Virus record (IMG/VR): IMGVR_UViG_3300007169_000056
DNA from: a virus
Lineage: Duplodnaviria > Heunggongvirae > Uroviricota > Caudoviricetes
Reading direction: 5' to 3' (one strand)
DNA length: 64,000 bases
Of the stretch, positions 4,708-11,186 are shown one piece after another. Within the stretch, counting starts at the first letter, position 1, and each line of letters starts with the position of its first letter. The notes below the pieces were generated by a model that saw nothing but the letters and a program-made list of their open reading frames with translations, searched no databases and was not told the DNA's origin. Position numbers and translations under genes: made by a program.

Positions 4708-4733
4708 AACCCCCTCTTCGGAGGGGGTTTTTT
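4708..4733 (+). terminator. intrinsic terminator
   Basis: AACCCCCTC-TTCG-GAGGGGGTT stem-loop followed by a T run. Confidence 0.9.
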
Positions 4734-4734
4734 G

Positions 4735-4763
4735 TTGACATCAACGTGTTTTTTCAGTAAGAT
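4735..4763 (+). promoter_or_regulatory. sigma70-type promoter, leaderless
   Basis: TTGACA-N17-TAAGAT; ATG at 4771, 7 nt after the -10. Confidence 0.75.
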
Positions 4764-4770
4764 AACAACA

Positions 4771-5088
4771 ATGAATATTGTAAACTACATCTTAAACAAC
4801 TGGGACAGTCTTCCAAAGAGCAAGTTTGATGATGTCACCGTCGTCATCTTCAAGGAAATTAAGAATGAAGATTGGGGGTATGGACATCACACTTATGAGG
4901 GTTATGGTGTTGATAAGAATGGTAATGTCACTTGGTGTTATTCTTCCGGTTGTAGTTGTGAGGGCGGGCCTTCCACAGAAATCAAGAAGGACTTGAAGAC
5001 GTTTACAGTTGATAGTGGCATTGATCTAAACGTAGATCCATCTACTATCAATTTCAATTCGCTCGAGGTTGTATTCAATACCTATTAG
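4771..5088 (+). CDS. hypothetical protein (105 aa)
   Basis: ATG at 4771 within ORF 4732..5088; SSGCSC motif; ends in TAG. Confidence 0.7.
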   Translation: MNIVNYILNNWDSLPKSKFDDVTVVIFKEIKNEDWGYGHHTYEGYGVDKNGNVTWCYSSGCSCEGGPSTEIKKDLKTFTVDSGIDLNVDPSTINFNSLEVVFNTY

Positions 5089-5094
5089 TACGAT

Positions 5095-5394
5095 ATGAGA
5101 ATAATTACGGATCCAAAAGAAAAATATCAGGTAGTAAATTGTTTGGAAACGCATTGTTTGTACAGAAAAACTTGTGCAAATCATACAAGCGCAGGTGATT
5201 TTCGTTCCGAGGGTGGATTCAGTCCACAATTGATGATAATCAATGGACATGTTCACTGCAAAACACATGACGTTCCTCCATACGGCGGAGAATTAGACGA
5301 TATCAAAGAATGGTATCCATCCAACCATAATAAACTTGATTTAGGATCCGTATTATGGAAAGATCTTGAACAATCAGACAACTACACTATATGA
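5095..5394 (+). CDS. hypothetical protein
   Basis: ORF track; ATGA overlap with next gene. Confidence 0.6.
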   Translation: MRIITDPKEKYQVVNCLETHCLYRKTCANHTSAGDFRSEGGFSPQLMIINGHVHCKTHDVPPYGGELDDIKEWYPSNHNKLDLGSVLWKDLEQSDNYTI

Positions 5395-9071: not shown

Positions 9072-9253
9072 AAATTAACTGTGGATGTACTACTGATTCG
9101 CTTTGTCCAGTTGCTAAAAAACTATGGAAATACAAAGCTTACAGAGGTCGTAAGGTATATTCAGATCATCGGCGGGCTGCTTTTGGTGAGACAGAGATGG
9201 ACGGAATGCATGGAATAAGTTACAGATCAAACAATTCAAAAAATGAAAATTAA
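9068..9253 (+). CDS. hypothetical protein
   Basis: ORF track; overlaps both neighbours. Confidence 0.5.
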   Translation: MKINCGCTTDSLCPVAKKLWKYKAYRGRKVYSDHRRAAFGETEMDGMHGISYRSNNSKNEN

Positions 9254-10331
9254 TCTAGAAACGTTGGATTTGACCCAATTCATGGCACATCAGCACATGG
9301 TTGCGGGTGAGGTTGTAACTTTGGTTCAGCCACAACACATTGGAACCAAGTGGACTCAGGATAACAAACATCTTCGATCCAGCGTGTGGAACAGTGAGGG
9401 TGAACTTATTAGTGCAGGCTTTCCTAAGTTTACCAACTGGGGCGAGAATCCCGAACACTTTCCTGTTCCGTCGTCACTGAAGAACTGCACCGTCGTGGAG
9501 AAGCTTGATGGTTCTCTATTGATTGTTAGCAAGTATAAGGGCCAATATATTCTACGAACCCGTGGAACTGTTGATGCTTCAACTCTGGCTAATGGTCATG
9601 AGTTGGAATTGTTCAAGGAAAAGTTCCTAAAGAGCTTGACTCACGATACACCTGATACTTGGAATGTATCGATTTTGTTTGAATGGGTTAGTCCTATCAA
9701 CAAGATTGTATTGAACTATGGTGATGAACCCGATTGGTATGTGGTGGGACTAGTTAATCACAACGATTATAGTTTGTATTCACAGTCCGAGTTGGATATC
9801 TGGGCTAAGAACAAGGGATTCAAGCGTCCTGTTACTTATACGTTTCCTAGCATTGACGATTTGATCAAGGATGTTGAAACTTGGAAGGGTAAGGAGGGTG
9901 TGGTTATCTATAGCCCAGTTGGTATCCACAAGCGAAAAGGTTTTTGGTATCTTACGCTTCATCATTTAAAGTCTGAGCTATCAAACATTGAAAAGGTTAT
10001 GGACGTATGGTTGGAACAGGGTATGCCTGACTATGGTACTTTCTACAACTATATCTTTAACACTTTTGATTATGAACTTGCCGAACAGTGCAAGGGTATG
10101 ATCAGCAAGATTGTTGATGCCAAAAAAGAGGTAGACAAGATTGTGTGGGGAATGAATTTGTTTATTAACACTAGACTACGTTCGTTGCCTACACGTAAAG
10201 AACAGGCACAAGTTGTTATTGCTTCGTATGGAGAAACGAACCGAGCGTCGTTTCTATTCAAGATGCTCGACAACAAACCTCTTGGAAAAGAAGAGTATAA
10301 AAAGCTGATGTTTCAGGTTTTGAAGAAGTAA
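9243..10331 (+). CDS. RNA ligase, T4 Rnl1-like
   Basis: FPKFTNWGE, motif I EKLDGSLL, FEWVSP..IV and KEGVV motifs. Confidence 0.85.
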   Translation: MKINLETLDLTQFMAHQHMVAGEVVTLVQPQHIGTKWTQDNKHLRSSVWNSEGELISAGFPKFTNWGENPEHFPVPSSLKNCTVVEKLDGSLLIVSKYKGQYILRTRGTVDASTLANGHELELFKEKFLKSLTHDTPDTWNVSILFEWVSPINKIVLNYGDEPDWYVVGLVNHNDYSLYSQSELDIWAKNKGFKRPVTYTFPSIDDLIKDVETWKGKEGVVIYSPVGIHKRKGFWYLTLHHLKSELSNIEKVMDVWLEQGMPDYGTFYNYIFNTFDYELAEQCKGMISKIVDAKKEVDKIVWGMNLFINTRLRSLPTRKEQAQVVIASYGETNRASFLFKMLDNKPLGKEEYKKLMFQVLKK

Positions 10332-10339
10332 AAAACAAA

Positions 10340-10368
10340 AACCCCACCTTTTGGTGGGGTTTCTTTTT
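10340..10368. terminator. bidirectional intrinsic terminator
   Basis: AACCCCACC-TTTT-GGTGGGGTT with A run before and T run after, between convergent genes. Confidence 0.9.
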
Positions 10369-10738
10369 ATACACATACTGTAGATTGTTTTTCTGCCAGA
10401 TATTGACGTTGAGCCTCAATTTTAGCTTCTTTCAATTCCAACAACATTTGTGTTGCAAGTGTTTTCAAACCGTAAAGATAAAACGTTTGATAATGTTGTT
10501 TCAAGTCATAGTGTTTGAACAACTTTGAATAACGTTCATTGTTATTCAATGCCTCATTGATTTTATTGGATGCTGTGATATAATTCAACGTAGCATCATT
10601 CAACAGTGGAGCAGCAACACGGGTATAGTGTTTTCGCATCCATTTATAGTCACGGATCCTTTGACTGAGCTGTTTATAGTCGGACTTCCACTGAGTGCGG
10701 TAAGCTAGGTATTCTTGTTTGTTAGTGAATTTGTTCAT
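10367..10738 (-). CDS. basic helical hypothetical protein (123 aa), co-transcribed with pth2
   Basis: ORF track; FTNKQEYLAYRTQWKSDYKQLS; starts 4 nt after the pth2 stop. Confidence 0.75.
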   Translation of the reverse strand: MNKFTNKQEYLAYRTQWKSDYKQLSQRIRDYKWMRKHYTRVAAPLLNDATLNYITASNKINEALNNNERYSKLFKHYDLKQHYQTFYLYGLKTLATQMLLELKEAKIEAQRQYLAEKQSTVCV

Positions 10739-10742
10739 ATGT

Positions 10743-11150
10743 TTACATTAGTTTAAACCGCCGGGTTATGTGTTGTATTTGAGATTTGGTGGCGGGACCA
10801 ATTCCCAAAGCCGTAATGGTAGGTTCTCCGTTGTAGAAATTGCTACAACCGCTGTCAACCACACGATAAAAAGAAAGACCAGCTTCTTGTGCCAAATGTT
10901 CAGCACGCAGAAGCTGGTCTAAATTAGATACTTGCAGACAGACCTTGGTTCCAGGCGAAGCTGGAAAATCACTATGGTAAGCTGCTATTGAAGTAGAATC
11001 CTTGCATTGAAGAAACGCACCAAGGTATGCGTGTCCGGCTTGAGAAGCAATTTTGCCGGTAGACATGCCCAAGTCTGTTCTGACAAGAGCATACAAACGA
11101 TAGGTTTCGTCAACCTACGTTTCTGGTTTGATCTAAGAAATATCCATCAT
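10743..11150 (-). CDS. pth2: peptidyl-tRNA hydrolase, Pth2 family; ATG at 11150 is followed by two in-frame TAG codons (alternative start TTG at 11096)
   Basis: YALVRTDL.MSTGKIASQAGHA, VVDSG and TALGIGP Pth2 motifs. Confidence 0.85.
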
Positions 11151-11157
11151 ATGTTGT

Positions 11158-11186
11158 ATCATGTCATACATATGTGCCTTCGTCAA
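11158..11186 (-). promoter_or_regulatory. sigma70-type promoter of the pth2 operon
   Basis: TTGACG-N17-CATGAT with TGn extension; ATG 7 nt after, same geometry as the other promoters. Confidence 0.6.

What the first reader, a model, noticed from the sequence alone, without database searches (positions are those of the whole stretch)
10743..11186. Amber-gated peptidyl-tRNA hydrolase: leaderless ATG, two in-frame TAGs and a hairpin precede pth2
Seen: on the minus strand a promoter (TTGACG-N17-TGa-CATGAT) lies 7 nt before the ATG at 11150, the same geometry as 11 other promoters here. The frame reads ATG ATG GAT ATT TCT TAG ATC AAA CCA GAA ACG TAG GTT GAC GAA ACC TAT CGT TTG TAT GCT (MMDIS*IKPET*VDETYRLYALVRTDL) and runs straight into the Pth2 domain. 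The ambers are at 11135-33 and 11117-15. A hairpin (AAACG-TAGGTT/AACCTA-T-CGTTT, 11122-11095) contains the second amber and buries the alternative TTG start. TAG is otherwise a rare stop in this window. Known: Pth recycles peptidyl-tRNA after drop-off, minigenes (lambda bar) generate drop-off, RF1 reads UAG, and prfB senses its own factor level by recoding. Inference: Pth2 output may depend on UAG readthrough (suppressor tRNA or low RF1 activity), or on termination at the 5-codon minigene melting the hairpin and exposing the TTG. Either would be a termination-stress sensor.
Basis: partly seen in the sequence, partly recalled or inferred. Interest (0 to 1): 0.8.

Follow-up and report, generated by a model that had tools for sequence, protein, structure and literature searches.

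The report
Stop-codon-gated phage peptidyl-tRNA hydrolase gene
A giant-phage gene for a tRNA-recycling enzyme (Pth2) can only be made in full if two early UAG stop codons are read as amino acids; about 90 related phage loci keep this lock, usually beside a phage tRNA that reads UAG, which gives these puzzling tRNAs a concrete target.

Summary

Comparison decides the reading. Of 95 related loci, 92 keep an in-frame TAG 5-46 codons before the Pth2 core. Nearly all have an in-frame ATG mini-ORF in front. 65 carry a tRNA(CUA) upstream on the same strand. The one TGA-gated locus has a tRNA(UCA) instead. Where relatives have a sense codon at a TAG position, it is Gln in 5 of 5 cases. The genomes are not recoded: in this record and in a complete 354-kb relative, pth2 is the only such gene.

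The hairpin/TTG restart and RF1-sensor half is not.

Caveat: this 171-kb record, about 49% complete, holds no tRNA at all.

In 17 distinct relatives the tRNA(CUA) gene lies inside the translated leader, in frame and open. That hints at feedback.

This scan has noted the same module on other DNA many times. I found no paper describing it.

The parts
11181..11186 (-). -35 hexamer TTGACG of the operon promoter
   Evidence: TTGAC is kept at the same place in L003 and L007. In the own record the TTGAC-to-start distance peaks at 34-36 nt.
11158..11166 (-). Extended -10 region: TGa plus CATGAT
   Evidence: Relatives have TGt-GAAGAT and TGa-CACGAT at the same offset.
11133..11150 (-). Five-codon mini-ORF ATG ATG GAT ATT TCT TAG. 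It starts about 7 nt after the -10, so the start is predicted to be leaderless.
   Evidence: In-frame ATG mini-ORFs ending at TAG occur in nearly all relatives with enough upstream DNA. The transcription start site is inferred, not mapped.
11133..11135 (-). Amber codon 1 (context TCT TAG ATC)
   Evidence: It is kept in L003-L007. L008, L073 and L009 have ACA TAG ATT.
11118..11132 (-). Five-codon linker (IKPET) between the two ambers
   Evidence: L003 has IKPET, L008 IDSPT and L007 INDADT. In other relatives the linker is 20-40 codons or contains a tRNA gene.
11115..11117 (-). Amber codon 2 (context ACG TAG GTT)
   Evidence: The ACR-TAG-GTN context recurs in most of the 92 TAG-gated loci.
11097..11114 (-). 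Codons VDETYR. They are translated N-terminal residues that lie upstream of the only canonical in-frame start.
   Evidence: They are conserved as D/N-x-T-Y/L-R in relatives, with synonymous changes.
10743..11096 (-). Pth2 domain, 117 codons plus TAA. The first codon is TTG, read here as an internal Leu.
   Evidence: PF01981 scores 87 bits against a cut-off of 23, covering profile positions 3-115 of 115. PDB Pth2 chains match at E about 1e-10. The AF2 model has pLDDT 93 and TM 0.81-0.88 to 2zv3, 1wn2, 3erj, 1xty and 1q7s.
10743..11150 (-). Full readthrough ORF, 135 aa if both TAGs are decoded
   Evidence: P0121.
11095..11122 (-). Local hairpin that contains amber 2 and the first two bases of TTG
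   Evidence: There is one compensatory pair against L003. L007 folds weakly, and the hairpin is absent family-wide.
10367..10738 (-). Co-transcribed 123-aa helical partner gene, 4 nt after the pth2 stop
   Evidence: A homologue lies just downstream of pth2 in 83 of about 87 loci. No family was found.
10337..10364 (.). Bidirectional intrinsic terminator that closes the two-gene operon

Best explanation
Pth2 here is an amber-gated gene.

How it is read:
- A promoter places the transcript start at or next to ATG 11150.
- Ribosomes start there and meet UAG after 5 codons, then a second UAG 5 codons later.
- Only if both are decoded by a UAG-reading tRNA, most likely inserting Gln, do they reach the Pth2 domain. 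The 123-aa partner gene, 4 nt further on, is probably reached by coupling.
- Output should therefore rise roughly with the square of suppression efficiency, so the gene reports and responds to suppressor-tRNA activity.

Context: the locus is a compact, tRNA-less version of a module that is widespread in large phages with standard-code genomes. The module is tRNA(CUA), amber-gated pth2, then the partner gene.

Status of each step:
- Shown: the anatomy, its conservation, the linkage to suppressor tRNAs, the stop-anticodon match, and the absence of genome-wide recoding.
- Inferred: the transcription start, the actual readthrough, Gln insertion, and that this phage has a tRNA(CUA) in its unsequenced half.
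- Speculative: the purpose. One idea is that Pth2 clears peptidyl-tRNA produced when stops are overridden. Another is that it caps suppressor activity.
For: 1. Both TAGs, the mini-ORF and the promoter are kept in L003-L007 (88-93% aa) at dS 0.46-0.58 and dN/dS 0.10-0.14.
2. 92 of 95 loci have an in-frame TAG before the core, from 74 distinct leader sequences. Almost all have an in-frame ATG 1-20 codons before the first TAG.
3. The codons between the TAG and the core change synonymously, so they are translated.
4. tRNA(CUA) lies upstream on the same strand in 65 of 95 loci. This includes the nearest relative with context, L118 (82% aa, two TAGs, tRNA 0.5 kb upstream).
5. The only TGA-gated locus (L019) has a tRNA(UCA) 2.7 kb upstream on the same strand.
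6. Relatives with a sense codon at a TAG position have Gln in 5 of 5 cases: P0024, P0036 (both positions), P0092 and L058/59.
7. The genomes are not recoded. The own record is 94.7% coding under code 11. G001 is 91.6% coding under code 11 against 92.0% with TAG as sense. pth2 is the only ATG-short-TAG gene in both.
8. In G001 the single tRNA(CUA) sits beside pth2, apart from the main tRNA cluster.
9. A non-adjacent suppressor has a precedent: in G005 the tRNA(CUA) is 27 kb from a TAG-gated pth2.
10. The domain looks functional. The Pth2 fold is recovered, and Lys15 and Asp81 are invariant and align with K18 and D86 of 1xty.
Against: - No tRNA of any kind is found in the 171-kb record by ARAGORN (default, intron and relaxed modes) or by Rfam tRNA. 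The key to the lock is therefore missing from what is sequenced, although the record is only about 49% complete.
- Nothing is experimental. The transcription start, readthrough and the inserted residue are all inferred.
- TAG still ends 9 of 258 ORFs here and 31 of 523 in G001, with no excess of back-up stops. A strong suppressor would therefore have a cost.
- The suppressor tRNAs have A73 or G73 and varied acceptor stems, so they may not all carry the same amino acid.
Confidence: 0.72

Rival explanations
1. Translation and termination of the 5-codon mini-ORF melt the hairpin and expose TTG 11096. The 117-aa protein is then made by restart, and the ambers are true stops.
For: TTG 11096 is the only canonical in-frame start after amber 2, and the resulting 117 aa cover the whole Pfam profile. 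The hairpin pairs the first two bases of TTG. It shows one compensatory pair against L003. A few relatives are annotated as starting with M at this position (P0011, P0025, P0029).
Against: The codon is CTA in L003-L006, and CTT, CTC or TTA in most other loci, with no ATG, GTG or TTG between the TAG and the core. The six codons before it are conserved as protein. The hairpin has z -1.3 on 66 nt here. It is weak in L007 and absent family-wide: mean z -0.32, and 9% of leaders below -2. This model does not explain the linked tRNA(CUA), the TGA/UCA match or the TAG-to-Gln swaps.
Confidence: 0.07
2. A readthrough gate without a phage suppressor. The two UAGs are passed by near-cognate host tRNAs, or by a host suppressor, when RF1 is limiting. 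Pth2 would then report host termination capacity, which is the reader's RF1 sensor.
For: No tRNA lies in the 171 kb held, and none within 3 kb of pth2 in the nearest relatives L003-L007.
Against: Two consecutive ambers would make basal readthrough very small (this rests on general knowledge of readthrough rates, not on a test here). The record is about half a genome. The next-nearest relative, L118, and the same-layout genome G001 do carry tRNA(CUA). In G005 the tRNA is 27 kb away. A relaxed ARAGORN run finds a possible tRNA at the very end of the contig, which suggests a tRNA region begins where the record breaks.
Confidence: 0.12
3. The leader is a relic. The real product is the 107-aa form from ATG 11066, as gene callers annotate, or the gene is decaying.
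For: About half of the top 120 database homologues are called at 106-108 aa from this internal Met.
Against: The 107-aa form lacks strand beta-1 (residues 2-6 of the model), which solved Pth2 structures include. The upstream codons evolve under purifying selection. The short calls are what a standard-code gene caller must produce when it meets a TAG.
Confidence: 0.05
4. The phage uses genetic code 15 (TAG = Gln) genome-wide, and pth2 is just one recoded gene.
For: TAG is a rare stop. The TAG-to-Gln swaps match code 15.
Against: Coding density is already 94.7% under code 11. No other gene is split by TAG in 171 kb or in the complete 354-kb G001. TAG terminates real ORFs.
Confidence: 0.03

Closest known systems
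Stop-codon recoding in phages with phage-encoded suppressor tRNAs (code 15 TAG to Gln, code 4 TGA to Trp; 'code-change modules'; Borges et al., bioRxiv 10.1101/2021.08.26.457843)
   Same: A phage tRNA reads a stop codon. In-frame stops are proposed to delay or condition translation of certain genes. TAG appears to stand for Gln. TAG is a depleted stop.
   Different: Here the genome is standard-code, and a single small operon carries the in-frame stops, always within the first codons. The target is a translation-quality enzyme, not lysis or structural genes. That paper does not mention a hydrolase.
prfB (RF2) autoregulation through an early in-frame UGA
   Same: There is an early in-frame stop in a translation-factor gene, and its passage depends on the state of the termination and decoding machinery.
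   Different: prfB needs a +1 frameshift and senses its own product. Here the frame is unchanged, and the sensed molecule is a tRNA encoded beside the gene, not the gene product.
Lambda bar minigenes and Pth
   Same: A very short ORF ends in a stop, and the biology is linked to peptidyl-tRNA hydrolase.
   Different: bar minigenes are separate toxic elements that cause drop-off. Here the mini-ORF is in frame with pth2 and continuous with it in relatives that carry Gln codons. Drop-off was not tested.
PTH2 of jumbo phages as described by Iyer et al. 2021 (PMC7824862)
   Same: It is the same enzyme family in the same kind of phage, and it sits next to RNA-repair genes. An Rnl1-type ligase is convergent with the operon here.
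   Different: That survey does not mention in-frame ambers or suppressor tRNAs.

Membership tests
Pth2 peptidyl-tRNA hydrolase (PF01981) | Full-length match to the family profile above the curated cut-off | tested here: met
   87.1 bits against a cut-off of 23; profile positions 3-115 of 115.
Pth2 peptidyl-tRNA hydrolase (PF01981) | Pth2 alpha/beta fold | tested here: met
   AF2 model with pLDDT 93. Foldseek gives TM 0.81-0.88 to 2zv3, 1wn2, 3erj, 1xty and 1q7s.
Pth2 peptidyl-tRNA hydrolase (PF01981) | Active-site Lys and Asp (K18 and D86 of S. solfataricus Pth2; their role is recalled from Fromant et al. 2005 and was not checked in a paper here) | tested here: met
   K15 and D81 align to K18 and D86 of 1xty and are invariant in 42 homologues.
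Pth2 peptidyl-tRNA hydrolase (PF01981) | Hydrolysis of N-blocked aminoacyl-tRNA | not testable with these tools
   This needs an enzyme assay.
Stop-codon-recoded (code 15) phage | In-frame TAG in many genes; genes fragment under code 11 | tested here: not met
   94.7% coding under code 11. pth2 is the only TAG-interrupted gene in 171 kb. The same holds in the complete G001.
Stop-codon-recoded (code 15) phage | Phage-encoded tRNA(CUA) | tested here: inconclusive
   None in this half-genome. Present in 65 of 95 related loci and in G001 and G005.
Amber-gated pth2 / suppressor-tRNA module (this scan's recurrent finding; no paper found) | In-frame ATG mini-ORF, then one or two TAGs, then the Pth2 core with no other canonical start | tested here: met
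Amber-gated pth2 / suppressor-tRNA module (this scan's recurrent finding; no paper found) | Cognate suppressor tRNA in the same genome | tested here: inconclusive
   Not in the 171 kb held, and the record is about 49% complete.
prfB-type autoregulatory recoding | A frameshift at the stop, and the product acts on that same stop | tested here: not met
   The frame is continuous. The product is a hydrolase, not a release factor.

The most novel reading that the evidence does not exclude
The gate may be one half of a self-regulating suppressor-tRNA circuit. In 17 distinct relatives the tRNA(CUA) gene, once two of them and once with a long insertion, lies inside the translated leader between amber 1 and amber 2. 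It is always in frame and free of TAA and TGA.

The proposed logic is this. Without the suppressor, ribosomes stop at amber 1, and the naked precursor folds and is processed into tRNA. With the suppressor, ribosomes read on through the tRNA sequence. That hinders its maturation and yields Pth2 and its partner.

On this view the window shows a derived form in which the tRNA has moved elsewhere and only the double-amber sensor remains. Pth2 and its partner would be the governor of suppression.
Probability: 0.25. Interest if true: 0.9.

Novelty: new variant of a known kind. Interest (0 to 1): 0.7.

Why it matters
- Suppressor tRNAs in phages that use the standard code have had no known target. 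A conserved, single-operon target gives a testable purpose.
- It would be a natural example of gene control by a tRNA that overrides a stop codon, which is a design used in synthetic biology.
- It shows that standard gene callers systematically truncate this gene to 106-108 aa.
- It links stop-codon override to peptidyl-tRNA recycling, beside RNA-repair genes. That may bear on how large phages take over or protect translation.
- The tRNA-inside-an-ORF relatives offer a direct test of competition between translation and tRNA processing.

Tried and rejected
- Genome-wide TAG recoding was rejected.
- Other amber-gated genes were sought. An ATG-short-stop-long-ORF scan shows no TAG excess over TAA or TGA, and only pth2 stands out.
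- Initiation at UAG by an initiator-like tRNA(CUA) was rejected. The 53 distinct tRNAs nearly all pair position 1 with 72 (49 of 53 G1-C72/A1-U72) rather than showing an initiator-type 1:72 mismatch, and most (42 of 53) have a CU-CUA-AA anticodon loop. In-frame ATGs are also conserved.
- A family-wide hairpin was rejected.
- A second promoter at the TTGAC inside TAG-GTTGAC was considered. No usable -10 is conserved (read).
- Back-up stops after TAG-ending genes show no enrichment.
- Assigning the suppressor's amino acid by similarity to G001's other tRNAs gave no clear nearest tRNA.
- Megablast against GenBank phages gave no match.
- The single-protein locus search in viral contigs gave nothing. 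The alignment-based search worked.
- Pfam on the TAG-joined ORF pair 4771-5391 found no family.
- P0002 and P0006 contigs gave no DNA because the sample file was too large.

Full report
**What is in the window**

All features are on the minus strand.
- TTGACG lies at 11186-81.
- A 17-nt spacer follows, ending in TGa.
- CATGAT lies at 11163-58.
- Seven nucleotides further on is ATG at 11150.

From that ATG the frame reads MMDIS, TAG (11135-33), IKPET, TAG (11117-15) and VDETYR. It then reaches TTG 11096 and a 117-codon ORF ending at TAA 10745-43. The whole span is one frame of 136 codons.

The 117-aa part is a complete Pth2:
- PF01981 scores 87 bits against a cut-off of 23 and covers profile positions 3-115 of 115.
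- Solved archaeal and human Pth2 chains match at E about 1e-10.
- The AlphaFold model has pLDDT 93 and superposes on 2zv3, 1wn2, 3erj, 1xty and 1q7s at TM 0.81-0.88.
- Lys15 and Asp81 align with K18 and D86 of 1xty and are invariant in 42 homologues. Their catalytic role is recalled from the literature and was not checked in a paper here.

A 123-aa ORF follows 4 nt after the stop (10738-10367). A bidirectional terminator at 10364-10337 closes the operon.

**Where the window comes from**

The window is part of a 171,680-bp IMG/VR viral record that is about 49% complete and has 37% GC. It shares 63 of 258 ORFs, at a median 41% identity, with a complete 354-kb phage contig, G001. It is therefore a fragment of a jumbo phage.

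**Promoter and leaderless start**

The scan tool flags 11186..11158. In the whole record the distance from TTGAC to a called start codon peaks sharply at 34-36 nt. Twelve genes fall there, against about one per other distance. The pth2 mini-ORF sits at 36.

The same TTGAC-N17-TGn-hexamer-N7-ATG layout is kept in L003 and L007. Many distant relatives show a clearer TTGACA-N16/17-TATAGT or TATACT, about 7 nt, then ATG. The transcription start itself is inferred.

**Comparative test of the ambers**

The nearest relatives are L003-L006 (93% aa) and L007 (88%). They keep the mini-ORF and both TAGs at the same positions. This holds although the gene has diverged to dS 0.46-0.58 with dN/dS 0.10-0.14.

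It cannot be the start there.

An alignment-based search gave 12 viral and 80 metagenomic loci. Of the 95 loci that could be analysed:
- 92 have TAG as the in-frame stop 5-46 codons before the conserved RLYA(L/I)VRxDL core;
- one has TGA;
- two have TAA.

These loci represent 74 distinct leader sequences. Most have no canonical start codon between the TAG and the core. Almost all with enough upstream DNA have an in-frame ATG 1-20 codons before the first TAG. From codon frequencies alone I would expect roughly one in four.

The TAG context is conserved at the nucleotide level as ACR-TAG-GTN.

Half of the database homologues are annotated as 106-108 aa from the internal Met. That form would lack strand beta-1. 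It is what a standard-code gene caller must produce on meeting a TAG.

**Link to suppressor tRNAs**

ARAGORN finds a tRNA with anticodon CUA upstream on the same strand in 65 of the 95 loci. Many of the remaining loci have too little upstream DNA to judge.
- L118 is the closest relative with context (82% aa). It reads MNIKEM-TAG-VSNIVETPT-TAG-V... and has tRNA(CUA) 0.5 kb upstream.
- In the complete G001, 24 of the 25 tRNAs lie in two groups, seven plus a tmRNA within the first ~43 kb and seventeen in a dense cluster in the last ~18 kb, but the single tRNA(CUA) sits alone about 200 nt before the mini-ORF of pth2.
- L019, the only TGA-gated locus, has a tRNA(UCA) 2.7 kb upstream on the same strand. 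Stop codon and anticodon therefore change together.
- In G005 the tRNA(CUA) is 27 kb from its TAG-gated pth2. Adjacency is therefore not obligatory.
- The 53 distinct tRNA(CUA) sequences are 74-78 nt long and mostly encode CCA. 49 of 53 pair position 1 with 72 (47 G1-C72, 2 A1-U72), and 42 of 53 have a CU-CUA-AA anticodon loop. They are elongator tRNAs, not initiators.

Where relatives carry a sense codon at a TAG position, it is Gln in five of five cases. These are P0024 against L017, P0036 at both positions, P0092, and L058/59 with CAG seen in the DNA.

**Not a recoded genome**
- Under code 11 the record is 94.7% coding. TAG ends 9 of 258 ORFs.
- No other gene is interrupted by TAG.
- G001 is 91.6% coding under code 11 and 92.0% with TAG read as sense.
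- A scan for ATG-short-stop-long-ORF shows no TAG excess, and only pth2 stands out in either genome.

**The hairpin**

The hairpin exists. On 42 nt it has -11.4 kcal/mol and z -2.55. On 66 nt z is only -1.3.

L003 keeps it with one compensatory A-U to G-C change, made of two synonymous substitutions. L007 folds weakly. Over 74 distinct leaders the mean z is -0.32 and only 9% fall below -2.

I read it as a local feature, perhaps a by-product of the conserved ACG-TAG-GT and ACN-YTN-CGT codons. It is not part of the mechanism.

**The gap in the case**

The record holds no tRNA at all. ARAGORN in default, intron and relaxed modes found no tRNA(CUA), and Rfam RF00005 found no tRNA.

A relaxed ARAGORN run gives one possible tRNA at 171224-171304, about 400 nt from the contig end. 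That fits a tRNA region starting where the record breaks. Whether this phage carries the key therefore remains open.

**An extra observation from the relatives**

In 17 distinct leaders the tRNA(CUA) gene lies between amber 1 and amber 2, or between amber 1 and the core. L066 has two tRNAs there. L081 and L090 have a tRNA plus a second one with a long insertion.

In all 17 the pth2 frame has no TAA or TGA across the span of 39-127 codons. The other two frames are closed in 30 of 34 cases. Taking each locus as independent, the product of open frames over three is about 1e-7. The loci are related, so this overstates the case. Still, the spans differ in length and in which frame crosses the anticodon.

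The simplest reading is that ribosomes do translate across the tRNA sequence. That suggests a choice between processing the precursor into tRNA and translating it into Pth2, with the choice set by the tRNA's own activity at amber 1. This is an inference.

**Literature and earlier notes**

Four full-text searches found no description of an amber-gated pth2.
- Borges et al. describe suppressor tRNAs, code-change modules and recoded lysis genes. They do not mention a hydrolase.
- Iyer et al. note PTH2 in jumbo phages among RNA-repair genes. They do not mention ambers or suppressors.

This scan's own notes hold many independent sightings of the same module in other genomes. I reached my reading before opening them, and I re-tested the main claims on my own loci.

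**Verdict**

The suppressor-dependent gate is well supported by comparison, at confidence about 0.7 for this locus. The hairpin/TTG restart is not supported. Function and feedback remain hypotheses.

Noticed in passing
window 10367-10738 (-): The 123-aa Lys/Arg/Tyr-rich helical ORF 4 nt after pth2 has a homologue directly downstream of pth2 in 83 of about 87 related loci. Pfam, PHROGs and the Atlas give no family. It is a third conserved part of the module, and its translation is probably coupled to the gate.
   Followed up: partly
G000:C1:132787-133173 (outside the window; L001 1498-1899, minus strand): The same phage record has a second Pth2 paralogue of 133 aa. It has a normal ATG start and no in-frame TAG, so the phage has one gated and one ungated Pth2.
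   Followed up: partly
L012, L009, L014, L046, L066, L074, L085, L091, L095, L099, L101, L102, L081, L090 (leaders upstream of pth2): tRNA(CUA) genes are embedded in frame, and open, inside the translated pth2 leader. L081 and L090 also carry a second tRNA(CUA)-like gene with an insertion of about 150 nt.
   Followed up: partly
L013, L014, L074, L076, L082, L083, L092 (0.65-1.7 kb after the TAG); also L054, L086, L081, L069: ARAGORN reports tRNAs with eight-base anticodon loops (four-base 'anticodons' such as gcaa, gaaa, acac) just downstream of pth2 and its partner.
   Followed up: no
window 9243-10331 (+) and 10337-10364: An Rnl1-type RNA ligase gene (PF09511) converges on the pth2 operon and shares its bidirectional terminator. 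This suggests a tRNA-repair and ribosome-rescue neighbourhood.
   Followed up: no
window 4732-5394 (+): Two ORFs in the same frame are separated by TAG plus two codons (...NTY, TAG, YD, M...). This is probably plain adjacency. No Pfam family spans the join.
   Followed up: partly
G000:C1:171224-171304 (end of the record): Only under relaxed ARAGORN settings, a possible tRNA-Ile(GAU) appears about 400 nt from the contig end. A tRNA cluster may begin where the assembly stops.
   Followed up: no
whole record, e.g. window 8446, 14881, 16575, 21779, 59582: Twelve genes have TTGAC exactly 34-36 nt before their ATG, so leaderless or near-leaderless transcripts seem common in this phage.
   Followed up: partly
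G001 (L020-L037) and G005 (L131): Both related jumbo phages encode their own tmRNA as well as 25-41 tRNAs.
   Followed up: no
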